Source: Lysobacterales bacterium (lineage in GTDB: Bacteria > Pseudomonadota > Gammaproteobacteria > Xanthomonadales > SZUA-5). From it: a stretch of 56,791 nucleotides of DNA. Numbering within the stretch: the first letter of the stretch is position 1; every line of letters begins with the position of its first letter. A program made the translations under genes and the position numbers. The stretch is taken from positions 1-56,791 of the forward strand of contig DAIMJK010000001.1 of the NCBI GenBank assembly GCA_036722245.1, in the 5' to 3' direction. The notes beneath the pieces were generated by a model that was not told the origin of the DNA, did no database searches, and saw only the letters and a program-made list of their open reading frames with translations. Positions 6,515-30,331 of the stretch are shown here, in pieces.

Positions 6515-6515
6515 A

Positions 6516-12922: not shown

Positions 12923-12932
12923 GGCGATCTCC

Positions 12933-13601: not shown

Positions 13602-14069
13602 TCAGGCGGTCTGAACGTCACGAACGCTGAAATCAACGTCCCTGAGCTGCATTATGGAAGAGCGGATGATTATCTTTCTTGCCTCAACCAGCACTTCACC
13701 GGTCACCGGGTGAAGTATCGGCACTGTGGTTCGCTGGCCGATCAAGCTCTCGAGCTCGGAATACGACTCGACGTAGAGACCATCTGGCAGCGCCACTTCC
13801 ACGCCATCACTGATCACTCGAGCCTGACAAGACAAGCGGCTGTTTGGCTGTGCTCCGGTCAATATGCTCAAGGCGAGCTTTTCTCGCTGCGAGGGCGGGG
13901 TCAGGCACTTCTCTCCGGCGACCACGTAAACGTGGCAAGTCGCGCACAGGCCGCGTCCGCCACACAGCATCTTCACCGGAACCTGGTTGGCCAGCAATGC
14001 ATCCAGTAGCCTGGATTCGGTTGGTAAATCGACTTTGGTTCCGTCAGCTCTAAAGGCAATTGTTTTCAT
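13602..14069 (-). CDS. [2Fe-2S] ferredoxin with a ~55-aa C-terminal extension
   Basis: Cys36-x5-Cys42-x2-Cys45-x35-Cys81 (MLCGGRGLCATCHV ... RLSCQ). The ATG overlaps the upstream stop (ATGA at 14066-14069). Confidence 0.88.
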   Translation of the reverse strand: MKTIAFRADGTKVDLPTESRLLDALLANQVPVKMLCGGRGLCATCHVYVVAGEKCLTPPSQREKLALSILTGAQPNSRLSCQARVISDGVEVALPDGLYVESYSELESLIGQRTTVPILHPVTGEVLVEARKIIIRSSIMQLRDVDFSVRDVQTA

Positions 14070-17000
14070 TGGGCAGCAACCTCAGGCGCATAGCTTTCGC
14101 GTTCAATCAGATCGAGTATTGGCAACAACGCCGGCCGGTGTCTGCCGGGGACCGCGGACACGAGCTCTCGCAGCCAGGTCATGGCCGAGGAGGGATCGGT
14201 GGCGATCAGGGTTTCCGTGTTGATGCTCACACCCATCCGCATGGCTCTGGAACTCTGCCGCGCGCGATCCAGCAGGTCGTGCGGAACATCGATGACTTGA
14301 GCCAGTGCAATCGCCAGGGTGCTGGCTGCCTGCATTTCCGGCAACAATGCGTTGATCTCGCGCAATCGATCAAGCAGTCCCTGTGCCGGGCTTCCCAAGC
14401 GGTCCAGATATTCAATCGAAAGTTGCAGCGCGATACCAATGTGTTCGGCCGGGTACCCTTGCCAAATGCCGTGTTGAGTTCTCCAGAGCCACGCCCTAGC
14501 GCTGGCGAACGGCGCGCCTTCGCGTAACGGAGCTGTTTCCAGAGCCAGTGTCTGCAGCGCCAGGACGAACTGTGCGTTTCGCATGGGCGAGGCGTAGCCA
14601 GCTCCGCGCGGAGGCAGTATGTGCTCCTGTCTGAGCATCAGGGCATCAGCAAATCGTGCCTGGGTCTGGCGCAAGCTCAGCATGTCCGGGCATTGCCAGC
14701 CGGTGGCGCGGGCTACCGGAATGTCTCCCGGCATCGGTGTGGTGAGGCCGTCGTCCTCGGCCTGGACCCAGCGATCGGCACGCCACAGCCAGTGTGCGGC
14801 AGCCAATTCCGAATGCACGACGCAGTAGATGTCAAAACCATGGGGCTCTTCGCTGCTTGCAATGGTGGAGCAGCGATTGAGTACTGTCCCGATTTCGTCC
14901 AAGACGTCGGCAACTGCGGCATTGAGCGGCTCGTCAGTATCGTCTCGCAGCACTTGGCTCAAACCTGGCAGCACCTCATCCCATTCGTTCGCGAACGACT
15001 CATTGACCAAGGGGCTGAGCATCAACGTGCGTGCGACGAAAGCACGGCTCCTGGTCCCGGCGGCGCGACCCGCTGCGGCTGCGAGCAACGCCGAGGCGAA
15101 CTGGCGCCAGTTGGCCTCCATTTCTGGATCGGTCGAGAACACTGCATCGGTCGATGCAAAAACCCTTCGACCGATTCGGTGCAAGGCTTCGGCATGGCGA
15201 GTCATTGCCATGGCGACTTCGGTCAGCTGCGTCCATGCCTCTCGCGCACCGCAGCGGCTGCCGTTTGACAATACTCTGCCGAGCTCGTCGAGAACCAGCC
15301 GCCAACTGCGAGGCTTGAACGGGACATGGCTGATCAGGCAGGTCAACAGATAGCGGCAGACCTCGATGTCCGCGCAATGGGACGCCGGGCCATGCAACGC
15401 TTGAACCATGAAGCGAATCAGAAGTTGCTGATCACGGAGTCCTTTCTCACGATACAGCCACTGCTCATCAGGTGGGCCTTCATGCAGCTCGGGCAACAGA
15501 TCAGCCACCGCGATGGCCATCTCGCTCTGTCGCGCGTGCAGTGTGTGACCCAGGGCAGTCAGCCGGAGGCGGTCCAGGCCCACTTCCAGCAGACACAGCC
15601 AGAACCCGCTCTGCGCCGGCGTCAATGACTGCTGCGTTATGACACAAAGCTTGAACCAGGCGCTCTCGATCTCTGACAAGGCGTGCCGATCCAGTAGTTT
15701 TTGCTGGATCGGCATGGTGCGCGACCACGCCAGCGCCAGATCGCCATGCTCGTTCAAGCCGTCCGCGGCGGACCGCCAGAGGTCCAATAGACCGCGTCCC
15801 AGCGAGTCGAGGGTGCTGGGTTCCACGCGTTCAAGCGCTCGGTGGTGCGATGGTGATGATCGACGCGTTCCGAACAGCGCGTCCCACAGCGGACTCGGCT
15901 GGTCGAACGTATCGAAGCTCAGAACCGCGTCGCTGGAAAGCTCACGCGGAATGTCGATCGACAGCGCCTTGCGATAGACGGTCGACAACACATCCAGCGC
16001 AACACAGTACTCGCTGTAGTCAAGAATACTCCGCAATTCGGCGGCGAGTTTCGCCAGATTGCCTTGCATGACTGGCTCATCGCGGTTGACCAGATAGATG
16101 CCGATGGTCGACAACCACCACCAGGTCATCGCAGCACTGGGGGAAGCAGTTGCTCCACCCAGCACCTGGCCCAGTCTGAGCAAGGTAAACTCATTGTCTC
16201 GCAGGGTTGAGGCGCGACCGCGTTCACCGATCCTCTCGGCGTACTCGGGGAACTCGGACAGGGTAGCCGCCGAGGCTGATACTGCCATCAAGTGCGCGCG
16301 ACGAACAATCTTCACCCCGGCGCCCAGTTGCGGCAGGCTCGCGCAGAAGGCGCTCAACAACCCAAACGGTCGCCCGGTTGCGTACGCGCTGTTGATGGCC
16401 ATTTGGTGACGCCAGTCCCTCAGCGCATCGATAGCGCGATCGGTATCCTGCTCATCTCCCGCGGCCAACAGGACCCGTGCCGTCCAGGCGCGCAACTCGG
16501 CGTACGCATGATGCTCTTGATAGCAGCAGAGCACCTGCAGGAGTTCGAAGCAACGTTGCAGCCAGACCTTGGTGCCCCCTATCTCGCACGTTGGCGCGGT
16601 CAGCGCGAAGCTGCAATCATCCAGTTCGGCAAGGTCTCGGCAAATGTCCGGCAACAGCTCGAGCAAAGCCACAAGCTGGCTGTCCGTGCTCAACCTATCA
16701 TCCTCGTTTGCGCACGAGAGCATCGATCGGGCGTAGCTCGAAAGTGTCGCACCGCTCTCCCAGATGCTCTCGCCGTGGGCGCACAGGAAGGGCATCCGCA
16801 TCCGAAACAGCTGTTGACGCGCTCCGGTGTCATGACCGAAGGCCGCCGCTCGGCGAGCCTCCACCAAGGCATGCCGAATGCGCTGATTCAAACCGGTCGC
16901 GTCCGCGCCGGCGCTGGTATCGATAACCGCAAGCGCTGGCTGGGACGAGGCTTCGGCACTGACCAACAAGACCGCCCGGTCAAGGAAGTCAAGCGCATCG

Positions 17001-18028
17001 GACAACGGGTCGAGATAATTTCGCTCCCAGCGCCGCCGCATCACCATCAGTATCTGCCGCTGTGCTTCCACCCAGCGCTCTCGGAAGTCGCTGCTGCTCG
17101 GCGCGCCGATTCCGGCATGACGAAACTGCCCGCACAGGCGCGAGTTCAGTTGCGCCTCGGGCCTGAGTTGTGCCAGGCACAACAGCGGCAGCAGGTCACT
17201 CAGGATTCCCGCATCCGCCGGCAAGTATGGCCTCGCGTCCGCGATAACATCGGCGATGAAGTCAAAGCGTGGCACCGCGCCGACCAAGGCCGCGACCGCA
17301 GCGCCGAACGCATGGCTCAGACGTTTCGATGCGCGCGCCGTGAAAGCTCGATCCAACCGCAGCAGCAGCAAGGACCACAGTCTGGCATCGAGCTTGAAGC
17401 TGCCCAGCATGCGATCGAGGAACAGGCGCACGAGTTCGACGTCGACGAGCGCTCCTGCATCCTCGGCGCATGCGCTCCAGTCAGTCAACAGCTGTGCGAG
17501 TGTCTGTTCCATGGCTTGATAGTCCGGCGCGGAACCCTCGCCGAAGAACTCGAAGGCATACCGGACGCCGACCAACACTTCGGCGCTGATGACCGTGGCA
17601 TCGGCACCGATCCGGGTCCTCTGAGAGGCAACCGCGGCAAACTCAGTCAGTTCCCACAGGCTTACCTCTGCCAGACAGCGGGCACGGCACGAAAGCTTGG
17701 TTGAAATCAGATGCAGAACTACTTCAGCAACGCATTGCGCGAACTCGCTCCGATCGCCCTGAAGCACCACCCAGGCGCGATCAGAGAGTGGCTCGTTGCT
17801 GCCTCCTCCACGCAGACGCTTGAGCACATCGGCAATGATGCGTGCGACCTGTTCAGCATGGTTCTGGGGGCCGTCTTTACGCAGGCTTAAATGCCGCAGT
17901 ACCTCGGAGGGGTCGATCTGCTCAAGGGCGTCGCAGATCTCCGAGCACAGCGGCGCGGAAATCTCACCGGGCAAGCGGTCGGCTTCAAAGCCATGGAACG
18001 CGGGAGCCAAAGGGGAAGTCGCCATCAT
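14066..18028 (-). CDS. 1320-aa Trp/Cys-rich all-helical repeat protein, related to the poly-globin protein upstream
   Basis: Uninterrupted ORF. Start at ATG 18028, directly after the upstream TAG (TAGGATGATG). The N-terminal module AEQVARIIADVLKRLRGGGSNEPLSDRAWVVL resembles AERCVRDVTIVLRMIALSLGDGGSDPASQLRAWSSV of the 767-aa protein. No NTPase or enzyme motif seen. Confidence 0.75.
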   Translation of the reverse strand: MMATSPLAPAFHGFEADRLPGEISAPLCSEICDALEQIDPSEVLRHLSLRKDGPQNHAEQVARIIADVLKRLRGGGSNEPLSDRAWVVLQGDRSEFAQCVAEVVLHLISTKLSCRARCLAEVSLWELTEFAAVASQRTRIGADATVISAEVLVGVRYAFEFFGEGSAPDYQAMEQTLAQLLTDWSACAEDAGALVDVELVRLFLDRMLGSFKLDARLWSLLLLRLDRAFTARASKRLSHAFGAAVAALVGAVPRFDFIADVIADARPYLPADAGILSDLLPLLCLAQLRPEAQLNSRLCGQFRHAGIGAPSSSDFRERWVEAQRQILMVMRRRWERNYLDPLSDALDFLDRAVLLVSAEASSQPALAVIDTSAGADATGLNQRIRHALVEARRAAAFGHDTGARQQLFRMRMPFLCAHGESIWESGATLSSYARSMLSCANEDDRLSTDSQLVALLELLPDICRDLAELDDCSFALTAPTCEIGGTKVWLQRCFELLQVLCCYQEHHAYAELRAWTARVLLAAGDEQDTDRAIDALRDWRHQMAINSAYATGRPFGLLSAFCASLPQLGAGVKIVRRAHLMAVSASAATLSEFPEYAERIGERGRASTLRDNEFTLLRLGQVLGGATASPSAAMTWWWLSTIGIYLVNRDEPVMQGNLAKLAAELRSILDYSEYCVALDVLSTVYRKALSIDIPRELSSDAVLSFDTFDQPSPLWDALFGTRRSSPSHHRALERVEPSTLDSLGRGLLDLWRSAADGLNEHGDLALAWSRTMPIQQKLLDRHALSEIESAWFKLCVITQQSLTPAQSGFWLCLLEVGLDRLRLTALGHTLHARQSEMAIAVADLLPELHEGPPDEQWLYREKGLRDQQLLIRFMVQALHGPASHCADIEVCRYLLTCLISHVPFKPRSWRLVLDELGRVLSNGSRCGAREAWTQLTEVAMAMTRHAEALHRIGRRVFASTDAVFSTDPEMEANWRQFASALLAAAAGRAAGTRSRAFVARTLMLSPLVNESFANEWDEVLPGLSQVLRDDTDEPLNAAVADVLDEIGTVLNRCSTIASSEEPHGFDIYCVVHSELAAAHWLWRADRWVQAEDDGLTTPMPGDIPVARATGWQCPDMLSLRQTQARFADALMLRQEHILPPRGAGYASPMRNAQFVLALQTLALETAPLREGAPFASARAWLWRTQHGIWQGYPAEHIGIALQLSIEYLDRLGSPAQGLLDRLREINALLPEMQAASTLAIALAQVIDVPHDLLDRARQSSRAMRMGVSINTETLIATDPSSAMTWLRELVSAVPGRHRPALLPILDLIERESYAPEVAAQ

Positions 18029-18029
18029 C

Positions 18030-20288
18030 CTAGTCCTGAGCCACGCCATAGACCGCGTCCAGCAACGCCCTGATCCGCGCTCTGGATTGCGGCGGGTAGC
18101 TTTCAATCTGCTTCTCGATGCAATCGGGCAGATGCTCTGTCATCGTCCGGGTTGGCACAGCCAGAAACGGGAGTAAGTGCACGCTGCTCCAGGCACGCAG
18201 CTGAGAGGCAGGATCCGAACCTCCGTCGCCAAGCGACAGCGCGATCATCCGCAAAACGATGGTCACGTCGCGGACGCAGCGTTCGGCAGCCTGATCCATC
18301 GCCAGCTCGGTCCACAGAGGCAGAGATTGCAGGTGTGCAATCGCGCCGCCCGCGATCGTCGAGCTGTTGCTGAACAGCGGCTCGGCGATCCCCAAGTCGG
18401 AAGCACAATCCAGCAAGTGCGCCTTGAGGGCACCCAGGCCATCCGTGAATGAGGGATCTCCCGATTCTTCCAGGAGCGCACAGGATTCACTCACGACCCG
18501 GGTCAATGCCTCAACTCTTGCAGCGGGATCAGCTTCGCACAGCAGTTCCACCAGTGGTGCCGTTGTGTGTGCGAGATAGCGGCCAGCAATCGCCCGACCG
18601 AGGCCTTCTTCCTCGGGCAACAACAGGGCGAACAAGATTTGCCGCGCGCAACCCGCAATCAATGGATCGGCGTTGCCCACGTTCAGTTGCAGCTGCACGC
18701 GGGCTGCGCTTACTGCGTGATAGCGGGGTGATTGCGCGCCTATATCGGCAAGGTAAGTCGACAAATGTTCGTTGTTTGCGGCGAGGGAGTCGGCGATCTC
18801 GTCAGCCCCAATTTCCTCCATCAGCCTCGCTCGGAGGCCGGCCTCGACACCGCAATCAGGATCCACTTGGCCGATGATCCACGCCCACCATCGCTCTGCC
18901 GTGAGCGAGTAGTCGCCGCGACATGACAACTCGGCTGCGCGCGTGAGCAACAGGCAAACCCACCGCTCCGCCGCAGCAACCGCTACCGTGTCGAGAGGCT
19001 TGTGCCGCGCCACGATCCTGGTCGCAGCCTGGGCGATTGCTGGCAACAAACGCGAAACACTGGCGAACTGGTGCGCCGCGGCCACGGCGATTCTCAGCAG
19101 CAGATCAAGATCGTCCCCGTAGTGAACACCCAATCGCTTGCTCGCCGTGGCGTGCAGTGTTCGTATCGCGGTTTCGGCGTGTTCAGAATCGCCAGTGGGG
19201 AGTCTGGTGCTGGCGCTCTCCAGCCAGTACTCAGCGATGGATGAGCGCAAACCGGTGTTGCCCGTCCCCAGATCGACGGCCGCAAAACGCAGCACATCCG
19301 TGAAAACATCACAATACAGGGCCGCATCGCTCGCTGAGGAGTCTTTGGCAACGACCATTGCCGCGCTGCGCGCAATCTCCGGTGCCAGCACGAATACCTG
19401 CAGCGCGCTCCGCGCATCGGTATCGGCGCAAGCAAGCGAGTACATCGCGGAGGCCGCGGTTCGCGCCGGAGACCATGCCAGCTGCTCAGCCGTGCCGCGC
19501 AGCAAGCCGGCAAAGGTAGCTCGCCATAGACTGCCGGAATAGCGGCCGATGTAACGACCCACCCGATCGAAGATCCAGCTCATCCATGCGCGTTGTGCCG
19601 CAACCACCGTCGGTGCCGCCAAGGCGGCCTGTGCAGCCCCCAGAATCATGCTCATGTCGCGAATGCACTTTCCTTCGCCGGATGGACCGTAGGTCAGCAC
19701 TGCCTGCGGATGTGAACTGGCTACGGCTTCCCAGGCAATACCCGCGATTGCAGCTGCGTGAGTGGCCAGGACTGCCCCCGCGGACCCATTCCGCACGAAG
19801 CTGCGCGCACCGCGCAGGTGATCCACGCAGAGTTCGGCTGCTTCGGCGGACAAGCGCTGCTGCGTGGCAAGAACGGCGTAGTCCAGCAGCAGCGCGGAAG
19901 CATCGGCGAATTCCATCCCGGCGCGCGCAGCCAACACAAGCTGACTCAACACACTGACTTCCAGACCATGCCGGTCTCCGCCCGCTACAGATGCGCTCAA
20001 ACCGCGCAACAAGAGCGCAAGGTCGCGCCGACAAGACCGCGTCAACTGGGCGTTGTCGATGCGCCCGGAGACCAGGAAGGCTTCAGCAGCCTGCTCGGCT
20101 GCCTGCGCAGCGATCTCATCCGCCGCGCGGTACATTGCCGACGCGCAAGCAAGGCGGTGGCCCAACGTCAGCGCGCGGCAACGTTCGGCGAAAGCGCCGC
20201 TCGAGAATGTATCCGGTGAGTCTACCCAGAACGTGCGCTCCAGCGACTGCGTAGCGACTTCCCTCGTCGCGCCATTTTCTCCCAACAT
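18030..20288 (-). CDS. Multi-domain protein with six tandem ~120-aa phycobiliprotein-like (globin) modules
   Basis: Recurrent motif: SCRRDLALLLRGLSASVAGGD, KCIRDMSMILGAAQ, YCDVFTDVLRFAAVDLGTGN, WVCLLLTRAAELSCRGD, GCARQILFALLL, RCVRDVTIVLRMIALSLGDGG. ATG 20288 follows GAGGAAGG. The alternative ATG 20333 overlaps the EAL gene stop by 14 nt. Confidence 0.75.
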   Translation of the reverse strand: MLGENGATREVATQSLERTFWVDSPDTFSSGAFAERCRALTLGHRLACASAMYRAADEIAAQAAEQAAEAFLVSGRIDNAQLTRSCRRDLALLLRGLSASVAGGDRHGLEVSVLSQLVLAARAGMEFADASALLLDYAVLATQQRLSAEAAELCVDHLRGARSFVRNGSAGAVLATHAAAIAGIAWEAVASSHPQAVLTYGPSGEGKCIRDMSMILGAAQAALAAPTVVAAQRAWMSWIFDRVGRYIGRYSGSLWRATFAGLLRGTAEQLAWSPARTAASAMYSLACADTDARSALQVFVLAPEIARSAAMVVAKDSSASDAALYCDVFTDVLRFAAVDLGTGNTGLRSSIAEYWLESASTRLPTGDSEHAETAIRTLHATASKRLGVHYGDDLDLLLRIAVAAAHQFASVSRLLPAIAQAATRIVARHKPLDTVAVAAAERWVCLLLTRAAELSCRGDYSLTAERWWAWIIGQVDPDCGVEAGLRARLMEEIGADEIADSLAANNEHLSTYLADIGAQSPRYHAVSAARVQLQLNVGNADPLIAGCARQILFALLLPEEEGLGRAIAGRYLAHTTAPLVELLCEADPAARVEALTRVVSESCALLEESGDPSFTDGLGALKAHLLDCASDLGIAEPLFSNSSTIAGGAIAHLQSLPLWTELAMDQAAERCVRDVTIVLRMIALSLGDGGSDPASQLRAWSSVHLLPFLAVPTRTMTEHLPDCIEKQIESYPPQSRARIRALLDAVYGVAQD

Positions 20289-20319
20289 GTTGCCTTCCTC
20301 GTCAGATGTGTATCGGTGG

Positions 20320-22347
20320 TCAACCATGGTCATCGGTCATTTCCCGCGGGTGACCCAGCAAGTATCCCTGCAACAACTCGCACCCCATGTCACGCAAACA
20401 TGCCAACTGTGCTGGCTCCTCGACGCCTTCGGCGGTGACCGACAATCCGAGACGACCGGCCAGATCGACCAGCGCATGAACCATGGTTTGATCGCGACCG
20501 AGCTGGGCGACAAGCTGCACGAACCGCCGATCGATCTTGATTCCCGCGATGGGGAATCGCTGCAGATGGGTCAATGATGAAAAACCCACCCCGAAGTCAT
20601 CCAGAATCAACTTGACCCCCAAATCACACAGGCAATGCAGCCGAGCCAGTGTCATGCTCTCGTCACAGAACAGCGCCGTCTCTGTCAATTCAATACGCAA
20701 AGACTGGATTATTTCGGGGGACTCTTGCCGCAACCGGGCAAGATAAGTGTCCAGGCCGCTGCCGGCCAGCGTGCGTGGTGACACATTCACGCTGATCCAA
20801 TGCTCCCTGCGCTGCTGCCCGACATGCCACTTCCTCAGCTGACCCAGCACTGCGGCGAGCATCCACTCGTCAATCAGCGGGATAGCGCCACCCGCTTCAG
20901 CGACGTCCAGAAATTCCATTGGCTGCAGCAGACCATGAATCGGATGTTGCCAGCGCACCAGAGCCTCATAGCCTGCCGTGCCCAGATTTCCGGCCGCGAA
21001 GATGGGCTGGAGATAACAGCGCAGCTCTTCGTTGGCTACGGCCGCATGCAAGTCGGAGAGAAGCTCGATTCGGCGTTGGGTTTCGTCACGCATGACTGGA
21101 TCGTATGCAACCACCTGACCGAAACCGCGGTCCTTGGCTTGATGCAAGGCGGAGTCTGCCGCTCGAACCAGATCGGTCGCATTGGTCGAACAGTACTCGG
21201 GCGTGACCACACCAATGGAGGCACTCAGCACCAGTCGCGACCCCTCGATTGGAAGGGACGTGGAAAAAATTCGCATGATCCTCCCGACCAGTGCATCGAT
21301 CTCGGCCTGGCCGTTTGAGTAATCAAGCATCACCGCGAACTCATCGGCACCAAACCGGGCGACATAATCGGTTTCCCGAATTGCAACCCGGATCCTCGTT
21401 GCCAGAGTGCGCAAGACACCATCACCAACACGTTCGCCCAACCCATCGTTGATCAAGCGAAATCTATCAATATCCAGCAATAGCAACGCTGGTGCCGAAA
21501 CCGTGGTATCGGACAATCGGTCCTTGAGTTTTCGCAGGAAGCTCACCCTATTTGGCAAGCGAGTGAGCGGATCGAAATACGCAGCCCGACCAAGCTGCCG
21601 CTCCACTCTCTTCTGCGGCCGCATGTCATATGCGCTGACAATCAGATACGTATCACTGCCGAAAGCCGCGATCTCGACGCTAAGCAGAACCGGCATTTGA
21701 TATCCAGAGCGGGTCAGCAGCGCATCTTCCAGCTTCACCGGTCCGAACACATTGTCAGCAAAGAGGGTGCTGAGTCTGTTTGTTCTGAAAATCTGATCAA
21801 AGTGGAGTGATCCGAACTCACCAACGGAATATCCACTATGCTCTTGAAAGCAACGATTCCATCGTATCACTACGCCGCTGGAATTGAATACGCAGAACAT
21901 CGCGGGCAATGCGTCCATGATCGTCTGTGCGAACCGGAGTTCACGCGCAATGCTGCAAGTTCGATCCGCGATCCCAAAACTACCGATGGACACCGGATGT
22001 TGCTCGGAGAGCACTGCCGGCATGGGTCGTACGCGAAGCTCAATATTCAGCGCGCCGTCGGGTCTTGAACTGCTCGCGGCGGAACATTCCAGGCGATGAT
22101 CCAATTTGTACCAGTGGCCCGGGGAGGGACCCCGGCTGGCCTCCGCGAAGACTCGACCCAAGACCACCGACAGCGCCGGATCAAGGGCCGCGATCAGAGT
22201 GTGAAAAGCGTCTGGAGTCTCGACCAGGTCGAACTCGCGCAGCAACCTCGCGTCGGCATACAACACCTGCCCGCTCTCGATCAGGAGCTTCATTTCCGAA
22301 TGCGCCCCGGCGGCAGTGCCGGGAGGCCTTTCGACCACCTGATTCAT
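20320..22347 (-). CDS. PAS-GGDEF-EAL c-di-GMP turnover protein
   Basis: GGDEF-domain block RFGADEFAVML (GADEF variant). EAL blocks GYEALVRW, IELTE, LDDFGVGFSS, KIDRRF, EGVE and QGYL. Start at MNQVVERPP (ATG 22347, GGAGAG upstream) or ATG 22428. The track start 22794 would overlap gvpL and encodes junk. Confidence 0.85.
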   Translation of the reverse strand: MNQVVERPPGTAAGAHSEMKLLIESGQVLYADARLLREFDLVETPDAFHTLIAALDPALSVVLGRVFAEASRGPSPGHWYKLDHRLECSAASSSRPDGALNIELRVRPMPAVLSEQHPVSIGSFGIADRTCSIARELRFAQTIMDALPAMFCVFNSSGVVIRWNRCFQEHSGYSVGEFGSLHFDQIFRTNRLSTLFADNVFGPVKLEDALLTRSGYQMPVLLSVEIAAFGSDTYLIVSAYDMRPQKRVERQLGRAAYFDPLTRLPNRVSFLRKLKDRLSDTTVSAPALLLLDIDRFRLINDGLGERVGDGVLRTLATRIRVAIRETDYVARFGADEFAVMLDYSNGQAEIDALVGRIMRIFSTSLPIEGSRLVLSASIGVVTPEYCSTNATDLVRAADSALHQAKDRGFGQVVAYDPVMRDETQRRIELLSDLHAAVANEELRCYLQPIFAAGNLGTAGYEALVRWQHPIHGLLQPMEFLDVAEAGGAIPLIDEWMLAAVLGQLRKWHVGQQRREHWISVNVSPRTLAGSGLDTYLARLRQESPEIIQSLRIELTETALFCDESMTLARLHCLCDLGVKLILDDFGVGFSSLTHLQRFPIAGIKIDRRFVQLVAQLGRDQTMVHALVDLAGRLGLSVTAEGVEEPAQLACLRDMGCELLQGYLLGHPREMTDDHG

Positions 22348-22550
22348 CAGCTCTCCGCGTGGCTGCGTTTGGACTGTGGCGGCCAATTGGAACGTGCACT
22401 CCGGAGCGATTCCGTGGGCAGGATCCATCGTGCGACCTTTATAGCCGCACAGGCTCCGGCACCGCACTACACCCTTGGTTGTAGCGACCGACTCCAGCGC
22501 GGCTGGGCACCTGTGAGAGAATCGCGCACACTCGGCACGCGAAGGTACCC
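22348..22550. promoter_or_regulatory. Divergent intergenic region between the PAS-GGDEF-EAL/globin operon and gvpL
   Basis: About 200 nt separate two divergently oriented start codons. Contains the 8-nt palindrome CCAATTGG and TGTG-N11-CACA. No promoter consensus could be assigned by eye. Confidence 0.4.
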
Positions 22551-23312
22551 ATGGCCACAAACCCGACCTACTCGGTGCTCGCGTTGATCCCCGCCGACAC
22601 TTCAACACATGACCTGTCGATCCGCGTTGTAGCGATCGGAAGTGGCTTGTGTGCTTGCGTCGAAGACGCAGAGACCGATCGTATCCAGAGGTTTGCCGAC
22701 CTGGCGAAGGCCGACCCGCAGTGGCTTGCCGGCGAGTTGGCGCGTCACCACAGGCTGGTGCTTGCCCTGCATCAGAGCGGCAGCGTTTTCCCAATGCAGT
22801 TCGGGGTCCTCACTTCCGATCTGGCGGCGCTGGGGGATGCCGTGCATGAGCATCACGAAGCGCTGGACGCATACTTCGGGTTGATTGAGGGTTGTGACGA
22901 ATGGGCAGTGAAGTTGCTCGCTGAAGTTGAGCCGTCGGTCGTGCCGTCAACAAGACCCTCCGATGGCACCAGCTACCTGCTTTCGCTACGCGCAGCGAAA
23001 CTGGCCAAAGCAGAACTCACGCGACAGCGGGGGGAGCGTGCGACCGGCGCCTTGGAGCATCTGCAGGGTTTGGCAAGGCACATACGCAACTTGCCAGCCG
23101 GCGAAAGCGAGCGCCTTTTGGGTGGAGCGGCAATGATCTCCAATCACGCTCTGTTGGTGCCACGCAGCGTACTGGGGGAGTTTGAGGCGGCCATCAGCCT
23201 GGCACGTCAGGAGCTGAGTGACACAAGCTTGCGAATGGAAATCACCGGACCCTGGCCCCCCTACTCGTTCCGACCGCGTTTGGACCAGCCGTCCGTGCTG
23301 GAAGAAGCCTGA
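22551..23312 (+). CDS. gvpL: Gas vesicle protein GvpL/GvpF family
   Basis: YSVLALIP...DLSIRVVAIGSGLCACVEDAE...HHRLVLALHQSGSVFPMQFGVLTSD...EWAVKLL has GvpF/L family architecture. GAAGG RBS 6 nt before the ATG. Confidence 0.85.
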   Translation: MATNPTYSVLALIPADTSTHDLSIRVVAIGSGLCACVEDAETDRIQRFADLAKADPQWLAGELARHHRLVLALHQSGSVFPMQFGVLTSDLAALGDAVHEHHEALDAYFGLIEGCDEWAVKLLAEVEPSVVPSTRPSDGTSYLLSLRAAKLAKAELTRQRGERATGALEHLQGLARHIRNLPAGESERLLGGAAMISNHALLVPRSVLGEFEAAISLARQELSDTSLRMEITGPWPPYSFRPRLDQPSVLEEA

Positions 23313-23390: not shown

Positions 23391-25505
23391 TCACGACCGG
23401 GAACGCAGTAGATCCCACGCCTGTAGTGCTGCGGCAAAATCGGCGTTGTTGATGGATTCAACCTGAGATTGTTGGTAGTCGCTCATTGAGCGGCGCATCG
23501 CCGCGAGACTGGCAAGGTCGGTCAGTCCGCGAATATCGGCGCCAGACTTGCCTTCCATCCTGCTTGCCAGATCGGCAATATCCAGGTTGTCCACTGGCCT
23601 GTCGCGAAGCACCGCGGCAAGAATCTCCTGGCGGTCCTGCAAACCAGGAAGTGGGACATGAACGAAGAAGTCGAATCGCCCCGGACGCAGCAGCGCCGGA
23701 TCAACCAACTCCAGGCGATTGGTCGCAGCCATCGCCCAGATCACCGTTCTGCCGCGCAAGCCATCAAGTTCAGTGAGCAGCTGGGCGACCACCCGATCCG
23801 CCACACCACTGTCTCCCGACTGGCCTCTGGCGGGGGCAAGGGAATCGAATTCGTCGAAGAACAAGACACATGGGGCGGCTTGCCTGGCCCGTTCGAAGAG
23901 TTCACGCACGGCGCGTTCAGATTCCCCGACATAGCGAGAGAGCAACTCCGGCCCGGAAACAGAAATGAAGTTTGCTTGCGCTTCCGTCGCCATGGCGCGC
24001 GCCAGCATCGTCTTACCGGTTCCAGGAGGCCCGTGCAGGACGATTCCACGGCAAGCGCGGATGCCATATTTCACAAACAACTCAGGAGCTTGCAAGGGCC
24101 AGAGAATACTCTCTCGCAGGACGGTTTTCACTTCGTGGAGTCCGCCTACGTCGGCCAGTCGGGTGTCCGGCACCTCGACGATCACCTGACGCATGCTCGA
24201 AGGCCGAACCAGAGCGAGCGCTTCGGCAAAGTCCAGTGCTGTCACCACGCAGGCGCCTATCGGCTCACCTCGGCGCAAGCTTCCATACTCGCGTTCGACC
24301 ACGCGCATCGCGGCTTCCTGGCACAGCGCCTTCAGGTCGGCTCCGCTGAATCCGTAGGTCGCATTCGCCAGGCCCTCCAGGTCCACATCCTTGGCCAGAG
24401 GCATACGCTTGGAGTGCACTTCGATGATCGCCAACCGGGCCACCCGGTTGGGCATTCCGAGCGCCACCTCGCGGTCGAACCGCCCTGGCCTGCGTAGCGC
24501 GGGGTCGAGATTCTGGGGCAAATTGGTGGCGGCAATCACGACCACGTCCCCGCGCGAGCCGATCCCGTCCATCAGTGTGAGCAACTGCGCTACAACCCGT
24601 TTCTCCACCTCGCCCTGAACCTGATCCCGGCGCGGCGCGATGGCGTCGATCTCGTCAATGAAGATGATGCTGGGCGCCTGCTTCTGCGCGCGCTCGAACA
24701 ACTCTCGCAGCTTGGCCTCGCTTTCGCCGTAGAACTTCTGAACGATCTCGGGCGCACTCACAGCGAAGAACTGTACACCGGCTTCGCTCGCCACAGCGCG
24801 CGCGATCAGCGTCTTGCCGGTGCCTGGCGGCCCGTACAGCAACACGCCGCGAGGTGGTGCCACGCCAAGCTTTTCGAACAGCTGAGGATAGCGCAGTGGT
24901 ACTTCGACCATCTCTCTCAGGCGTTGAATCTCCCGATCAAGACCGCCAATCTCGTCGTAACTGGTGACCGACTTCCTGCCCTTCCCGGCGTCGTCCAACT
25001 CCACGAACTTGACCAGGGTTTGCGGCCCGACGACAACAGCGCCGTCAGGTCGAACCAGCCTCACGTCGAAGTCCCGCACCGCGCCGCCAGCCAGCGTCAC
25101 GCCAACCATGTTGCCCTGGCGCAGCACCTGTCCATCAAGCCCGCTGGCAATTTCTTCCTGCTGAGCCGCGGACAGGCGCGCCCGATCGATCGGACGCAGC
25201 CACAGTTCTTCCGCGCCAGCACTTTCCACCGTGTGAAGTTCTATCCGATCGCCGATCGCAATTCCCGCATTGCGCCGCGTTTGCGCATCTACCTGCACAA
25301 CTCCAAGTCCACGGCGGTCGGAGAAAACCGGCATGACGCGCGCAAACGCAGCGCCTTCCGGGCCCAGGGCAACCGTGCTGCCGGGCTCCAGCCGGGCCGC
25401 CTTGATCCAAGCCGGATCCACCCGAACGACGCCACGACCGCGGTCCTGGGAACGCGCGTCGATCACCTCCAGCGTCGGCAACGAAGTCCGCTTTGTTCCA
25501 CTCAT
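23391..25505 (-). CDS. CDC48/VCP-type double AAA+ ATPase (N-domain, D1, D2)
   Basis: Two Walker A sites (LLYGPPGTGKTLIARAVA; VLHGPPGTGKTMLARAMA) and two Walker B sites (IIFIDEIDAI; VLFFDEFDSL). The N-terminal segment LEVIDARSQDRGRGVVRVDP is CDC48-N-like. ATG 25505 overlaps the gvpH stop (ATGA). Confidence 0.88.
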   Translation of the reverse strand: MSGTKRTSLPTLEVIDARSQDRGRGVVRVDPAWIKAARLEPGSTVALGPEGAAFARVMPVFSDRRGLGVVQVDAQTRRNAGIAIGDRIELHTVESAGAEELWLRPIDRARLSAAQQEEIASGLDGQVLRQGNMVGVTLAGGAVRDFDVRLVRPDGAVVVGPQTLVKFVELDDAGKGRKSVTSYDEIGGLDREIQRLREMVEVPLRYPQLFEKLGVAPPRGVLLYGPPGTGKTLIARAVASEAGVQFFAVSAPEIVQKFYGESEAKLRELFERAQKQAPSIIFIDEIDAIAPRRDQVQGEVEKRVVAQLLTLMDGIGSRGDVVVIAATNLPQNLDPALRRPGRFDREVALGMPNRVARLAIIEVHSKRMPLAKDVDLEGLANATYGFSGADLKALCQEAAMRVVEREYGSLRRGEPIGACVVTALDFAEALALVRPSSMRQVIVEVPDTRLADVGGLHEVKTVLRESILWPLQAPELFVKYGIRACRGIVLHGPPGTGKTMLARAMATEAQANFISVSGPELLSRYVGESERAVRELFERARQAAPCVLFFDEFDSLAPARGQSGDSGVADRVVAQLLTELDGLRGRTVIWAMAATNRLELVDPALLRPGRFDFFVHVPLPGLQDRQEILAAVLRDRPVDNLDIADLASRMEGKSGADIRGLTDLASLAAMRRSMSDYQQSQVESINNADFAAALQAWDLLRSRS

Positions 25506-25978
25506 TGCGGCGGGCTCTTCGGATTCCCTGCCTTCTTGCCAGCCACCGGCCAACTCAGCGACAACACGCCCTGTCGAAAGCTCTGCTTCACACGACGGTG
25601 GTCCACCGCATGCGGCAATAGCAGCTCGCCATAGAAATGGCGCGTGTCCTGTTTGGAGGAAACAACCAACATGTCGCCATCAACCTCAATGCGCAAGCGC
25701 TCCAGCTCCAGCCGAGGCTCATTGACCAGGACTCCGATGCGAGAGCCGCGTTCGAAGAGCTCCAATTCCAGCAGTTGCCGCAGGGGCCCCGTCTCCTCAC
25801 TCACGCCCCGCAATTTTTCGGCCAGTTCGCGCCATTCTGAAGCCGAACTGCCATCAGCGGCAGCCATACGGACACCACTGCGCTTGCCATCAACGGAATC
25901 GCCATCCGGCGCTTGTACTGTGGCCCCTTCGGCAAGCTTGTCCAGTACGGCCAGCAGGCCCTTCGCCAACCATTCCAC
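25502..25978 (-). CDS. gvpH: Hsp20/alpha-crystallin-domain gas vesicle protein (GvpH-like)
   Basis: LRIEVDGDMLVVSSKQDTRHFYGELLLPHAVDHRRVKQSFRQGVLSLSWP is an ACD-type beta-sandwich. Start assigned to GTG 25978, just after the gvpJ stop with GGAGAGG upstream. The track ATG 26083 would overlap gvpJ by 100 nt. Confidence 0.7.
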   Translation of the reverse strand: MEWLAKGLLAVLDKLAEGATVQAPDGDSVDGKRSGVRMAAADGSSASEWRELAEKLRGVSEETGPLRQLLELELFERGSRIGVLVNEPRLELERLRIEVDGDMLVVSSKQDTRHFYGELLLPHAVDHRRVKQSFRQGVLSLSWPVAGKKAGNPKSPPQ

Positions 25979-25982
25979 CGCG

Positions 25983-26366
25983 CTAGCCTCTCCGCTTCCG
26001 CGTCGCGCGCGTCGGTTCGGCGCTACTCGATCCGCTCTTTGGTACTCCAAAGCGCGACGTGGCGCCTGGAAGAATAGCTCCATCCAACGCCCTCTCGATT
26101 CGCTCCAAGCGTGCGTTCATCTCCTCAGCCTGACTCGCTTCCAGCGCGCGCGGGCCGGAGGGACCCATGAAATGGCTTTCATTGCGCCACCAGTCCATCC
26201 CCATCTCCATCGCCCGGTCGACTGAGCAAATCACCAGTCGAATCTGAATCGTCAACAGTTCAATATCGACCAGATTGATTCGAATATCACCGGAAATGAC
26301 CACACCCTTGTCCAGCACACGTTCCAGCAGATCCGCCAGATTGGTGCTTTGGGTGGAGTGAATCAT
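25983..26366 (-). CDS. gvpJ: Gas vesicle protein GvpJ (GvpA/J family)
   Basis: NLADLLERVLDKGVVISGDIRINLVDIELLTIQIRLVICSVDRAMEMGMDWW. Confidence 0.9.
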   Translation of the reverse strand: MIHSTQSTNLADLLERVLDKGVVISGDIRINLVDIELLTIQIRLVICSVDRAMEMGMDWWRNESHFMGPSGPRALEASQAEEMNARLERIERALDGAILPGATSRFGVPKSGSSSAEPTRATRKRRG

Positions 26367-26399
26367 TGTTCTCGACTCAACCTGCGGCACCGCTTTCTC

Positions 26400-26705
26400 C
26401 TAGAGCTTCCCCAACGGGCCCAGATCGAGCTTGAGATCGCTCTCACTGAGACCAAAAAGTTCACACAGGCGCTTGATTTCCTCGGCCTGGTGCATCAACG
26501 TCGCACCCAGACGTTCTATTTCCACATCGCTCAAGCTGTCGCCCTCCAGGCGTCGCAACGCCTGCCGCTCCAACAGATCATGAACGAGCTTGATCAACGT
26601 GAGCACCAATTGAGCCAAACCGTTGCCAGCCTGCTCAGCATCCAGCGAAACTTTCTTTCGACCCTGGTTGAGCAGCGGCAGCAGGGCACTCTCAATGTTG
26701 TCCAT
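26400..26705 (-). CDS. gvpK: Gas vesicle protein GvpK
   Basis: GLAQLVLTLIKLVHDLLERQALRRLEGDSLSDVEIERLG...DLKLDLGPLGKL. Start at MDNIES (26705). Confidence 0.9.
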   Translation of the reverse strand: MDNIESALLPLLNQGRKKVSLDAEQAGNGLAQLVLTLIKLVHDLLERQALRRLEGDSLSDVEIERLGATLMHQAEEIKRLCELFGLSESDLKLDLGPLGKL

Positions 26706-26910
26706 CGATACTCCGCAGCGAGTGCTTGAGCGCATTTGGCGCACCGTTGGCCCGTTCCACTGACGTCAACAACAGGCTTAGATCAAGAAAAAGCAACTCG
26801 ATGTCGGCAACCGTGATCACCAACATCCCGCGCAGGACCACCCCGGTTTCAATCAGGCGGTCAAGCAGGTCCACCAGATAGACCTGTTCATCGCCGCTAC
26901 CGAGCTTCAT
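26692..26910 (-). CDS. Small GvpA/J-family gas vesicle protein (GvpS/GvpM-like)
   Basis: YLVDLLDRLIETGVVLRGMLVITVADIELLFLDLSLLLTSVERA. The ATG overlaps the gvpG stop (ATGA). Confidence 0.82.
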   Translation of the reverse strand: MKLGSGDEQVYLVDLLDRLIETGVVLRGMLVITVADIELLFLDLSLLLTSVERANGAPNALKHSLRSIDGQH

Positions 26911-27113: not shown

Positions 27114-27115
27114 GC

Positions 27116-27847: not shown

Positions 27848-27852
27848 CGATT

Positions 27853-28134: not shown

Positions 28135-28186
28135 CGGTGAATCCTGCTCAATGGTTGGGGACTCCGGGAGGCTTTACTGCCCCTTC

Positions 28187-28477: not shown

Positions 28478-28479
28478 GG

Positions 28480-29688: not shown

Positions 29689-29703
29689 AATCGACTCCCT
29701 GGC

Positions 29704-30270: not shown

Positions 30271-30293
30271 CACCAATCCCCCAAGGTCACGCG

Positions 30294-30326: not shown

Positions 30327-30331
30327 GCCGC

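What the first reader, a model, noticed from the sequence alone, without database searches (positions are those of the whole stretch)
18030..20333. Six tandem ~120-aa phycobiliprotein-like modules in one polypeptide, each with a Cys at the chromophore-attachment-like position
In track-ORF numbering the motif [C]-x-[R]-[D]-x4-L-[RK]-x6-10-G-[DG] recurs at C101, C223, C341, C460, C562 and C686. The spacings are 122, 118, 119, 102 and 124 residues. The corresponding codons are at 20031-20033, 19665-19667, 19311-19313, 18954-18956, 18648-18650 and 18276-18278.

The best copies are SCRRDLALLLRGLSASVAGGD, KCIRDMSMILG and RCVRDVTIVLRMIALSLGDGG. They mirror the phycobiliprotein helix-E signature C-x-RD-x4-LR-x3-Y-x4-GD, which carries Cys-82/84, the main covalent bilin site. 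Canonical phycobiliproteins are single-domain subunits. A covalently concatenated hexa-globin would be an unusual architecture. ApcE is the only loosely comparable case I know, and it has just one such domain.
Basis: partly seen in the sequence, partly recalled or inferred. Interest (0 to 1): 0.88.

Follow-up and report, generated by a model that had tools for sequence, protein, structure and literature searches.

The report
Six-module phycobiliprotein-like globin protein
One 767-residue bacterial protein is built from six head-to-tail copies of the globin fold used by cyanobacterial antenna pigments; only three copies keep the pigment-binding signature, and the gene sits in a pigment-synthesis operon next to gas-vesicle genes, an architecture I found no description of.

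Summary

The phycobiliprotein (PBP) resemblance is real. Pfam PF00502 scores 45.5 bits against a cut-off of 22.2. A profile of nine homologues hits solved phycocyanin and allophycocyanin chains (E 1.6e-6 and 9e-6). The AlphaFold2 model (pLDDT 82.8, pTM 0.83) matches allophycocyanins in Foldseek (prob 0.95-1.0, TMt up to 0.73).

The six modules are not equivalent:
- Modules 1, 2 and 6 are directly PBP/BBAG-like and carry C-x-R-D. Three such motifs arise in about 5e-5 of shuffles.
- Modules 3-5 are degenerate. They link to the others only through profile-profile hits (E 7e-7, 4e-5, 1e-3) and a shared helix layout.
- Cys341 lies one residue off the canonical site, and Cys460 and Cys562 lie 5-6 residues off. 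None of these three is conserved.

The gene belongs to a conserved pre-PcyA-type bilin operon with an FDBR, ferredoxin, two V4R proteins and a single-domain BBAG, with a heme oxygenase about 13 kb upstream. It follows a PAS-GGDEF-EAL gene and a gas-vesicle cluster. The 1320-aa protein downstream also contains Cys-less globin modules.

Best reading: a multi-domain BBAG that binds up to three bilins. This is a new variant of a known kind, and its function is inferred, not shown.

The parts
18030..20333 (-). 767-aa poly-globin ORF (multi-domain BBAG-like protein). Its start overlaps the stop of the upstream GGDEF-EAL gene by 14 nt. Its stop lies 1 nt before the ATG of the 1320-aa ORF.
19848..20207 (-). 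Module 1 (aa 43-162), directly PBP/BBAG-like. Helix E carries C101-R-R-D104.
   Evidence: Pfam PF00502 E 4e-4 on the isolated module. BBAG profile E 2e-6. Family profile vs ApcB3 E 9e-6. Single sequence vs ApcD2 8uhe_I E 0.078.
20022..20033 (-). C101-R-R-D104 motif (putative bilin site 1). The Cys is kept in 2/9 homologues. An R/Q-D/N pair is kept in all 9.
19425..19847 (-). Module 2 (aa 163-303), directly PBP/BBAG-like. It carries K222-C223-I-R225-D226.
   Evidence: BBAG profile E 2e-5. M2 profile hits 33 PBP chains in PDB, the best being CpcA at E 0.003. M1-M2 hhalign E 9e-9.
19656..19667 (-). C223-I-R-D226 motif (putative bilin site 2). K222, R225 and D226 are invariant in 9/9. The Cys is kept in 6/9.
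19119..19424 (-). Module 3 (aa 304-405), degenerate globin-like. Cys341 is one residue off the canonical position, has no R/D, and is not conserved.
   Evidence: M3 (304-416) vs M6 (644-761) hhalign E 7e-7, prob 92%. No PBP hit with its own profile.
18774..19118 (-). Module 4 (aa 406-520), degenerate globin-like. The canonical position is A455 (A-E-R-W). The distant homologue P0010 keeps Y-R-D here.
   Evidence: M4 vs M2 E 1.4e-5 to 4e-5, with the same register against M1 and M6. Motif table. No PBP hit with its own profile.
18459..18773 (-). Module 5 (aa 521-625), the weakest module. The canonical position is about D556. P0010 keeps R-R-D...GG and P0004 keeps A-N-E...GGG here.
   Evidence: M5 vs M2 E 6e-4 to 1.3e-3 and vs M6 E 0.025, in a consistent register. 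Motifs. The AF2 model of the isolated module was poor (pLDDT 62) and its Foldseek result uninformative.
18033..18458 (-). Module 6 (aa 626-767), a complete PBP-type globin domain carrying R-C686-V-R-D689.
   Evidence: Pfam PF00502 covers aa 635-760, matching profile positions 20-150 of 155. Family profile vs C-phycocyanin alpha 1cpc_A E 1.6e-6.
18267..18278 (-). C686-V-R-D689 motif (putative bilin site 3). D689 is invariant. The Cys is kept in 6/9.
14066..18028 (-). Downstream 1320-aa protein, translationally coupled to the 767-aa ORF. It contains at least 2-3 Cys-less globin-like modules (aa 555-686, 816-918, 938-1051) with T-L-R-D and G-L-R-D motifs.
   Evidence: hhalign E 2e-8, 7e-9 and 3.6e-4 against modules of the 767-aa protein. 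Conserved downstream of the poly-globin gene in L003, L006, L008 and L010.
20320..22794 (-). PAS-GGDEF-EAL protein immediately upstream (c-di-GMP turnover). It is conserved upstream of the poly-globin gene in the syntenic loci L003, L006, L008 and L010/L011.
13602..14069 (-). 2Fe-2S ferredoxin, the Fe-S protein of the pre-PcyA cluster.
   Evidence: PF00111, E 2e-11
12933..13592 (-). V4R protein.
   Evidence: PF02830, E 1.6e-17
10676..12958 (-). 760-aa SMC-like coiled-coil protein with no Pfam hit. Its orthologues vary in length from 570 to 1127 aa.
10052..10663 (-). Single-domain BBAG (203 aa). It carries K-A-P-R-D, so the attachment Cys is absent.
   Evidence: PF00502, E 5e-9
9363..10052 (-). 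Second, weaker V4R protein.
   Evidence: E 0.002
7658..9394 (-). Ser/Thr protein kinase, conserved in the cluster.
5831..6553 (-). Ferredoxin-dependent bilin reductase. It is divergent and pre-PcyA-like, scoring far below the PcyA equivalog cut-off.
   Evidence: PF05996, E 2e-11; PcyA model 34.7 bits vs cut-off 206
4593..5801 (-). Pyridine-nucleotide-disulphide oxidoreductase, a candidate ferredoxin reductase.
33012..33914 (-). Heme oxygenase, about 13 kb upstream on the same strand.
   Evidence: PF01126, E 7e-7
23391..30550 (-). Gas-vesicle gene block directly upstream on the same strand: gvpA, a 215-aa apolipoprotein-like protein, GvpN-like AAA, GvpF/L, GvpG, GvpA/J, GvpK, a GvpJ-like protein, Hsp20 and a CDC48-type AAA.
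   Evidence: The same linkage occurs in L006, L007 and L008.

Best explanation
The 767-aa protein is a multi-domain member of the phycobiliprotein/BBAG globin superfamily: six PBP-type globin modules of about 100-140 residues fused head to tail. The modules lack the N-terminal X-Y hairpin of antenna subunits, and the last helix of one module runs into the first helix of the next.

Modules 1, 2 and 6 keep the helix-E pocket signature (K/R)-C-x-R-D. In phycobiliproteins the Asp hydrogen-bonds the pyrrole nitrogens, the Arg binds a propionate, and the Cys forms the thioether to ring A. I infer that these three modules bind up to three bilins, covalently at Cys101, Cys223 and Cys686. By analogy with BBAGs, attachment is probably autocatalytic.

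The bilins would be made by the heme oxygenase (33012-33914) and the pre-PcyA-like FDBR (5831-6553), with the operon's own ferredoxin and a candidate reductase. Modules 3-5 have lost the pocket residues and probably act as a structural core or spacer. The high pTM suggests a compact body, not beads on a string.

The protein has no enzymatic or output domain. It presumably works through contacts with its co-translated partners: the 1320-aa Cys-less poly-globin, the single-domain BBAG, the V4R proteins, the PAS-GGDEF-EAL protein and the Ser/Thr kinase. The operon is contiguous with gas-vesicle genes in several lineages. The most likely role is therefore a bilin-loaded sensor or holder module, responding to light or to redox/heme status, that feeds c-di-GMP or kinase signalling to control buoyancy.

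Shown: the fold family, the repeat architecture, motif conservation and gene linkage. Inferred: bilin binding, its stoichiometry, and any sensory or buoyancy role.
For: Fold and family.
- PF00502 scores 45.5 bits against a cut-off of 22.2, with two matched stretches. Six of nine family members hit PF00502.
- The family profile hits solved C-phycocyanin alpha and ApcB3 at E 1.6e-6 and 9e-6, with C-x-R-D aligned to Cys84.
- The AF2 model has pLDDT 82.8 and pTM 0.83. Foldseek finds allophycocyanin and phycocyanin chains at prob 0.95-1.0 and TMt 0.54-0.73.

Repeat architecture.
- hhalign gives in-register module-module matches, with clean reversed-sequence controls.
- The predicted helix layout is periodic across all six modules.
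- The distant homologue P0010 keeps x-x-R-D in modules 4 and 5.

Bilin link.
- The operon contains an FDBR, 2Fe-2S ferredoxin, two V4R proteins and a BBAG, with a heme oxygenase about 13 kb upstream on the same strand. This matches the pre-PcyA cluster of Rockwell et al. 2023, where BBAGs were shown to self-attach bilins.
- Gene order is conserved in four divergent loci at 23-28% protein identity.
- Homologue P0005 lies 8 nt downstream of a heme oxygenase gene. P0010 lies in an FDBR-HO-V4R-globin cluster.
- K222, R225, D226 and D689 are invariant.

Gas-vesicle and signalling link.
Against: - No experiment bears on bilin binding by this protein.
- The attachment cysteines are not universal. P0003 has Ala at all three sites. 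Cys101 is kept in only 2/9 homologues.
- The cluster's own small BBAG has Ala in place of Cys, so binding may be non-covalent or absent in some members.
- Modules 3-5 have no direct similarity to any PBP or BBAG. The isolated module 5 did not fold confidently.
- Three homologues (P0003, P0004, P0011) sit in loci without bilin genes nearby.
- Whole-model Foldseek E-values are poor (about 1) because the query is long. I could not obtain per-module superpositions.
- The link to gas vesicles rests on gene proximity only.
Confidence: 0.62

Rival explanations
1. The protein has three PBP-like globin domains (M1, M2, M6) separated by an unrelated helical spacer of about 320 residues. The apparent similarity of modules 3-5 would then be a composition or helix-periodicity artefact of an Ala/Leu-rich protein, possibly an alpha-solenoid-like segment.
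For: - M3, M4 and M5 profiles hit no PBP in Pfam or PDB. They hit only designed helical repeat proteins.
- The BBAG profile sees nothing between aa 300 and 620.
- The isolated M5 model is poor.
- Whole-model Foldseek also lists HEAT/importin-like proteins, at low probability.
Against: - M3 vs M6 aligns 112 columns at E 7e-7, and M4 vs M2 aligns 105 columns at E 1.4e-5. Registers are mutually consistent across three independent targets, and reversed controls give E of at least 0.02.
- The helix-by-helix layout (B-E-F-G-H) matches in all six modules.
- Distant homologues keep Y-R-D in M4 and R-R-D...GG in M5 at exactly the predicted canonical positions.
- Solenoid hits have prob of at most 0.15, against about 1.0 for PBPs.
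Confidence: 0.2
2. The protein is a pigment-free structural scaffold or linker. Like the PB domain of ApcE, or like catalytically dead paralogues, its modules would dock single-domain BBAG subunits or coat another structure such as gas vesicles, without binding bilin themselves.
For: - The Cys is lost in some homologues, at all three sites in P0003.
- Three of the six modules are clearly degenerate, and the 1320-aa partner has only Cys-less modules.
- There is no output domain.
- The gene is collinear with gvp structural genes in the window and L008, and gvp genes adjoin it in L006 and L007.
Against: - The pocket residues K-C-x-R-D stay under strong constraint in M2 and M6: K222, R225, D226 and D689 are invariant across 17-28% identical homologues. 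This is hard to explain without a ligand.
- One homologue is directly coupled to a heme oxygenase gene.
- Characterised BBAGs with the same motif bind bilins.
Confidence: 0.13
3. The protein acts as a light-harvesting antenna, a primitive single-chain phycobiliprotein disc that funnels energy to a photosystem or rhodopsin.
For: - It has PBP homology and several putative chromophore sites in one compact chain.
- Six globin units equal the number in an (alpha-beta)3 trimer.
Against: - No photosystem, reaction-centre or rhodopsin gene lies in the 57-kb window. The surroundings encode signalling and gas-vesicle proteins.
- The related loci come from Xanthomonas/Lysobacterales and Planctomycetota MAGs. 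I know of no phototrophs in these groups; this rests on my own knowledge and was not tested here.
- Characterised BBAGs have low fluorescence yield, 3-7%.
- The modules lack the X-Y helices used for alpha-beta pairing.
Confidence: 0.03

Closest known systems
BBAGs (bilin biosynthesis-associated globins; BBAG-1/BBAG-3) of pre-PcyA clusters, Rockwell, Martin and Lagarias 2023 (PMC10151467)
   Same: - Same superfamily (PF00502).
- Same helix-E C-x-R-D motif.
- Same genomic setting: FDBR, heme oxygenase, 2Fe-2S protein and two V4R proteins, in non-photosynthetic bacteria.
- No output domain.
   Different: - The BBAGs characterised there are treated as single globins; the cluster BBAGs read here are 165-232 aa. 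Here six modules are fused in one 767-aa chain.
- Three modules are intact and three degenerate.
- The protein is paired with a second giant poly-globin of 1320 aa.
- In this cluster the small BBAG has lost the Cys, while the large protein keeps it.
[quoted passage not shown]
Light-harvesting phycobiliprotein subunits (CpcA, ApcA/B, ApcD)
   Same: - Globin-like fold.
- The Cys84-type K-C-x-R-D site aligns residue for residue in modules 1, 2 and 6.
- Foldseek TMt up to 0.73.
   Different: - Antenna subunits are single-domain, 160-175 aa, with an X-Y hairpin. They form (alpha-beta)3 rings, need lyases, and occur in cyanobacteria and red algae.
- This protein is a covalent six-module chain without X-Y helices, from an uncultured bacterium whose nearest homologous loci lie in Xanthomonas/Lysobacterales MAGs.
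ApcE (LCM core-membrane linker)
   Same: A large polypeptide containing a PBP-type globin domain with a bilin.
   Different: - ApcE has one PB domain, with a loop insertion, followed by 2-4 REP linker domains (PF00427).
- No PF00427 or other linker domain is detected here at E up to 1.
- The extra mass here consists of further globin modules.
Polymeric multi-domain haemoglobins (e.g. the Artemia nine-domain globin); recalled from general knowledge, not tested here
   Same: Covalent concatenation of globin-fold domains in one chain.
   Different: These are haem-binding animal globins of a different globin lineage, with no bilin site. The resemblance is an architectural analogy only.

Membership tests
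Phycobiliprotein superfamily (Pfam PF00502 'Phycobilisome protein') | Significant match to the family HMM above the gathering threshold | tested here: met
   45.5 bits against a cut-off of 22.2, E 1e-11, two matched stretches. Six of nine homologues also match.
Phycobiliprotein superfamily (Pfam PF00502 'Phycobilisome protein') | Globin-like all-helical fold superposable on solved PBPs | tested here: met
   AF2 model pLDDT 82.8. Foldseek finds APC and PC chains at prob 0.95-1.0 and TMt 0.54-0.73 over about 160 columns. The output does not say which module is matched.
BBAG (bilin biosynthesis-associated globin) | Globin/PBP homologue encoded in a cluster with a heme oxygenase and/or a pre-PcyA FDBR (the operational definition of Rockwell et al. 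2023) | tested here: met
   Same-strand cluster with an FDBR, Fer2, two V4R proteins and a BBAG, with a heme oxygenase 13 kb upstream. Conserved synteny.
BBAG (bilin biosynthesis-associated globin) | C-x-R-D motif on helix E (BBAG-1/BBAG-3 type) | tested here: met
   Present in modules 1, 2 and 6 and absent in modules 3-5.
BBAG (bilin biosynthesis-associated globin) | Self-assembling bilin binding | not testable with these tools
   Requires co-expression and spectroscopy.
BBAG (bilin biosynthesis-associated globin) | Single globin domain, as in every characterised member | tested here: not met
   Six modules in 767 aa.
Light-harvesting phycobiliprotein alpha/beta subunit | Single-domain subunit of about 160-175 aa with N-terminal X-Y helices for alpha-beta pairing | tested here: not met
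   Module spacing is 101-130 aa. The Pfam match starts at profile position 20-30. NCBIfam equivalog scores are 15-19 bits against cut-offs of 225-270.
ApcE / LCM | PB domain plus REP linker repeats (PF00427) | tested here: not met
   Only PF00502 is found at E up to 1.
   M1, M2 and M6 match directly. M3 and M4 match only transitively, at E 7e-7 and 1.4e-5. M5 is weak, at E about 1e-3, and its isolated AF2 model is poor.
   True only for M1, M2 and M6, with conservation of 2/9, 6/9 and 6/9. Cys341, Cys460 and Cys562 are off-register and unique to this sequence.

The most novel reading that the evidence does not exclude
The 767-aa six-globin chain and its 1320-aa Cys-less partner form a compact, bilin-loaded pseudo-oligomer, a single-chain analogue of the six-globin (alpha-beta)3 phycobiliprotein disc. 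This body would be the photosensory or redox-sensory head of a c-di-GMP/kinase pathway that controls gas-vesicle buoyancy in non-photosynthetic Proteobacteria and Planctomycetota. It would give BBAGs their first physiological role and offer a living model for how free globins became higher-order phycobilisome-like assemblies.
Probability: 0.12. Interest if true: 0.85.

Novelty: new variant of a known kind. Interest (0 to 1): 0.6.

Why it matters
Phycobiliproteins are thought to descend from bilin-binding globins (BBAGs) of heterotrophic bacteria, but nobody knows what BBAGs do or how they came to assemble into large complexes.

This protein shows that the BBAG lineage has produced covalently concatenated, partly degenerate multi-globin proteins. 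It also has a 1320-aa companion. Both are conserved across Xanthomonas/Lysobacterales-type MAG loci and a Planctomycetota homologue, and they sit inside bilin-synthesis operons. That gives a concrete object for asking how many bilins such an array holds and whether it forms a disc-like body.

Its repeated linkage to c-di-GMP enzymes, a Ser/Thr kinase and gas-vesicle genes gives a testable physiological output, buoyancy, for an otherwise function-less pigment system. Fused bilin-binding globins could also be of use as compact multi-chromophore fluorescent or optoacoustic tags.

Tried and rejected
- The k-mer-seeded homologue search found only the query itself, both with the single sequence and with the alignment profile. 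The Ala-rich composition probably swamps the word filter.
- BLASTP self-comparison shows no internal repeat at E below 1. The repeats are visible only at profile level.
- The search for related loci with the nine-sequence alignment failed because no conserved 7-10-column stretch exists. A four-sequence subset worked.
- AF2 of the isolated module 5 gave pLDDT 62 and pTM 0.38, and its Foldseek hits were only designed helical bundles. This is uninformative, neither support nor refutation.
- M3, M4 and M5 profiles against PDB and M5 slices against Pfam gave no PBP hits.
- The two strongest modules of the 1320-aa protein, used as probes, did not reveal further modules in that protein with a three-sequence profile.
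- Literature searches for multi-domain or tandem PBP-like globins, and for a BBAG/gas-vesicle link, found nothing beyond the two pre-PcyA papers.
- I considered a chance motif and rejected it: three C-x-R-D motifs occur in about 5e-5 of shuffles.
- I considered ApcE-like linker membership and rejected it: no REP domain is present.
- The many plus-strand ORFs overlapping the gene look like the spurious ORFs expected in roughly 62% G+C DNA. I did not test them individually.

Full report
**1. Observation**

The window holds an ATG-initiated ORF on the minus strand at 18030-20333, encoding 767 aa. The full C-x-R-D tetrad is present only at 101 (CRRD), 223 (CIRD) and 686 (CVRD). In 200,000 shuffles of the protein, three or more C-x-R-D motifs arose 11 times, about 5.5e-5. 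The recurrence is therefore not chance.

**2. Is it phycobiliprotein-like?**

Yes.
- Pfam PF00502 scores 45.5 bits against a cut-off of 22.2. Two stretches match, and the best covers aa 635-760, matching profile positions 20-150 of 155.
- Scanned separately, module 1 (E 4e-4) and module 6 (E 5e-5) hit PF00502. The four middle slices do not.
- phmmer against PDB aligns SCRRDLALLLRGLSASVAGGD with SCLRDQAWFIRLISYAVAVGD of ApcD2, and RCVRDVTIVLRMIALSLGDGG with [21 protein letters not shown] of C-phycocyanin alpha. This places Cys101 and Cys686 on the Cys84-type site.

**3. Homologues**

The word-seeded search found only the query itself. The exhaustive phmmer search of 1.84 billion cluster representatives found a small family:
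- six full-length relatives at E 1e-52 to 7e-26 (24-29% identity over the matched stretches, 717-760 aa);
- two remote ones (798 and 737 aa);
- two short C-terminal matches (194 and 130 aa).

Where a source names a member, it is called 'hypothetical protein', and one is from a Planctomycetota MAG. The window's own copy is in MAG GCA_964502275.1. Related loci come from an uncultured Xanthomonas MAG and a Lysobacterales MAG.

In the nine-sequence alignment A1, K222, R225, D226 and D689 are invariant. The profile of A1 hits solved C-phycocyanin alpha at E 1.6e-6 and ApcB3 at E 9e-6. Six of the nine members pass PF00502.

**4. Repeat architecture**

BLASTP sees no internal repeat. Profile-profile comparison does.

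| Pair | hhalign E | Note |
|---|---|---|
| M1-M2 | 9e-9 | in register |
| M2-M6 | 1e-8 | in register |
| M1-M6 | 7e-7 | in register |
| M3 (304-416) - M6 (644-761) | 7e-7 | 112 columns |
| M4 (410-532) - M2 (170-301) | 1.4e-5 to 4e-5 | same register against M1 and M6 |
| M5 (558-636) - M2 | 6e-4 to 1.3e-3 | M5-M6 E 0.025, same register |

Reversed-sequence controls give E of at least 0.02 throughout.

Against a profile of the cluster's single-domain BBAGs, only three peaks appear: aa 38-145 (E 2e-6), aa 178-263 (E 2e-5) and aa 630-725 (E 2.5e-4). Nothing appears between aa 300 and 620. Module-specific profiles against PDB agree with this. M2 retrieves 33 phycobiliprotein chains, while M3 and M4 retrieve none. 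M5 slices hit nothing in Pfam.

AlphaFold2 on A1 gives an all-helical model with pLDDT 82.8 and pTM 0.83. Residues 1-42 are disordered. Foldseek against PDB lists allophycocyanin and phycocyanin chains at probability 0.95-1.0 and TMt 0.54-0.73. The E-values are near 1 because the query is long, and the output does not say which module is matched.

I anchored the DSSP string on the canonical positions 101, 223, 340, 455, 556 and 686. All six modules then show the same sequence of elements: loop, helix E of about 22 residues, helix F, helix G, helix H. The last helix runs on into the next module. An attempt to fold module 5 alone gave pLDDT 62 and meaningless Foldseek hits.

My reading is six homologous globin-type modules. 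Three are intact and three degenerate, and module 5 is the least secure.

**5. The cysteines**

In the profile alignments the canonical site in module 3 is Y340, so Cys341 is at +1 and has no Arg or Asp. In module 4 it is A455 (A-E-R-W), so Cys460 is at +5. In module 5 it is about D556, so Cys562 is at +6.

None of these three cysteines occurs in any other family member. Cys101 is kept in 2/9, Cys223 in 6/9 and Cys686 in 6/9. The remote homologue P0010 keeps Y-R-D in module 4 and R-R-D...GG in module 5. This supports a common origin of all modules from an x-x-R-D globin. The protein is therefore plausibly a tri-bilin protein, not a hexa-bilin one.

**6. Context**

All genes listed below are on the minus strand and tightly packed. 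Reading in the direction of transcription:

| Window coordinates | Product |
|---|---|
| 33012-33914 | heme oxygenase |
| 30679-33001 | two-component regulators |
| 30332-30550 | gvpA |
| 28480-29688 | GvpN-like AAA |
| 27116-27847 | GvpF/L |
| 25983-27113 | GvpG, GvpA/J, GvpK and a GvpJ-like protein |
| 25502-26083 | Hsp20 |
| 23391-25553 | CDC48-type AAA |
| 20320-22794 | PAS-GGDEF-EAL |
| 18030-20333 | the 767-aa protein |
| 14066-18028 | 1320-aa protein |
| 13602-14069 | 2Fe-2S ferredoxin |
| 12933-13592 | V4R protein |
| 10676-12958 | 760-aa coiled-coil protein |
| 10052-10663 | 203-aa BBAG |
| 9363-10052 | second V4R protein |
| 7658-9394 | Ser/Thr kinase |
| 7030-7704 | 224-aa protein of unknown function |
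| 5831-6553 | FDBR |
| 4593-5801 | flavoprotein reductase |

The poly-globin start overlaps the GGDEF-EAL stop by 14 nt, and its stop lies 1 nt before the next ATG.

This matches the pre-1/pre-3 pre-PcyA cluster of Rockwell et al. 2023: an FDBR, heme oxygenase, Fe-S protein, two V4R proteins and 'one or two' globins. In that work single-domain BBAGs were shown to self-attach bilins.

The order GGDEF-EAL, poly-globin, giant protein, Fer2, V4R, long protein, BBAG, 225-aa protein (followed by the kinase wherever the fetched DNA reaches that far) recurs in L003/L008, L006 and L010/L011. Poly-globin identity across these loci is only 23-28%.
- P0010 lies in an FDBR-HO-V4R-globin cluster followed by gvp genes.
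- P0005 lies 8 nt after a heme oxygenase gene.
- P0003, P0004 and P0011 are isolated from bilin genes.

Gas-vesicle genes adjoin the cluster in every cluster-type locus with enough flanking sequence: the window, L006, L007 and L008.

**7. Further points**

The 1320-aa neighbour has no Pfam hit. Even so, it contains modules matching M6 (aa 555-686, E 2e-8), M2 (aa 816-918, E 7e-9) and M6 again (aa 938-1051, E 3.6e-4). Their motifs are T-L-R-D and G-L-R-D, with no Cys.

The cluster's small BBAGs carry K-A-P/F-R-D, with Ala in place of the attachment Cys. In this system the covalent sites are therefore found on the large protein.

**8. Interpretation**

Best explanation (confidence about 0.6): a multi-domain BBAG in which modules 1, 2 and 6 bind bilins made by the cluster's HO and FDBR, and modules 3-5 form a degenerate structural core. 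It would act with its co-translated partners as a pigment-loaded sensor or holder. Gene linkage suggests that it feeds c-di-GMP or kinase signalling connected to gas-vesicle buoyancy.

The fold, repeat, motif and synteny statements are shown. Bilin binding, stoichiometry and physiology are inferred.

Rivals:
- three globins plus an unrelated helical spacer (0.2);
- a pigment-free scaffold (0.13);
- a true antenna (0.03).

**9. Comparison and novelty**

The protein belongs to the PF00502 superfamily and meets the operational definition of a BBAG. It fails the single-domain character of all described BBAGs and antenna subunits, and it lacks the REP domains that define ApcE.

The two pre-PcyA papers and the full-text searches contain no description of a multi-module PBP-type globin or of a BBAG/gas-vesicle link. 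Figures are not held in the library, so I cannot exclude that such a gene was drawn as a 'globin' in a cluster diagram.

I rate it a new variant of a known kind, with interest 0.6.

Noticed in passing
window 14066-18028 (-): A 1320-aa ORF immediately downstream, translationally coupled and with no Pfam hit, contains at least 2-3 degenerate phycobiliprotein-like globin modules (aa 555-686, 816-918, 938-1051). Their motifs are TLRD and GLRD, with no Cys. It is a second giant poly-globin, conserved in the syntenic loci.
   Followed up: partly
window 10052-10663 (-); L003 12170-12754; L006 19348-19947; L007 8644-9141: The single-domain BBAGs of these clusters carry K-A-P/F-R-D, with Ala where characterised BBAG-1/BBAG-3 proteins and phycobiliproteins have the attachment Cys. 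Covalent attachment sites in this system are found only on the 767-aa protein.
   Followed up: partly
window 23391-30550 (-); L006 7358-8092; L007 13824-22397; L008 166-7054: A complete gas-vesicle gene set lies directly upstream of the bilin/globin operon: gvpA, GvpN-like AAA, GvpF/L, GvpG, GvpJ/A, GvpK, Hsp20 and a CDC48-type AAA. The linkage recurs in the Xanthomonas/Lysobacterales MAG loci and in the Planctomycetota-type locus L007. This points to a bilin-buoyancy connection that the pre-PcyA papers I read do not mention.
   Followed up: partly
window 40065-46303 (-); L007 1-4572: A CheA-like hybrid kinase (Hpt-HATPase-CheW-REC) and a dCache/HAMP methyl-accepting protein lie near the cluster in the window, and a similar set (CheA-like kinase, CheW, a dCache protein cut by the locus end) in L007. 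The window is also dense in hybrid histidine kinases, response regulators and GGDEF/EAL proteins.
   Followed up: no
L014 4168-7078; L015 4305-7215: Homologue P0005 (750 aa, with Cys at modules 2 and 6) starts 8 nt after a 216-aa heme oxygenase gene, with no FDBR nearby. This suggests a biliverdin-binding version of the poly-globin.
   Followed up: partly
window 10676-12958 (-): A 760-aa protein between V4R and BBAG has only weak SMC-like coiled-coil matches. Its orthologues vary widely in length (570, 721, 1037 and 1127 aa). Its function is unknown.
   Followed up: no
window 7030-7704 (-), 33911-34726 (-), 34739-35386 (-): Three ORFs of 215-271 aa have no Pfam or NCBIfam match. The first lies between the kinase and the FDBR, and L010 has a comparably placed ORF after its kinase. 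The other two lie just upstream of the heme oxygenase. I did not examine them for lyase-like folds.
   Followed up: no
window 33012-33914 (-): The heme oxygenase ORF is 300 aa, and the Pfam domain starts at residue 67. Either the real start is downstream or the protein has an N-terminal extension.
   Followed up: no
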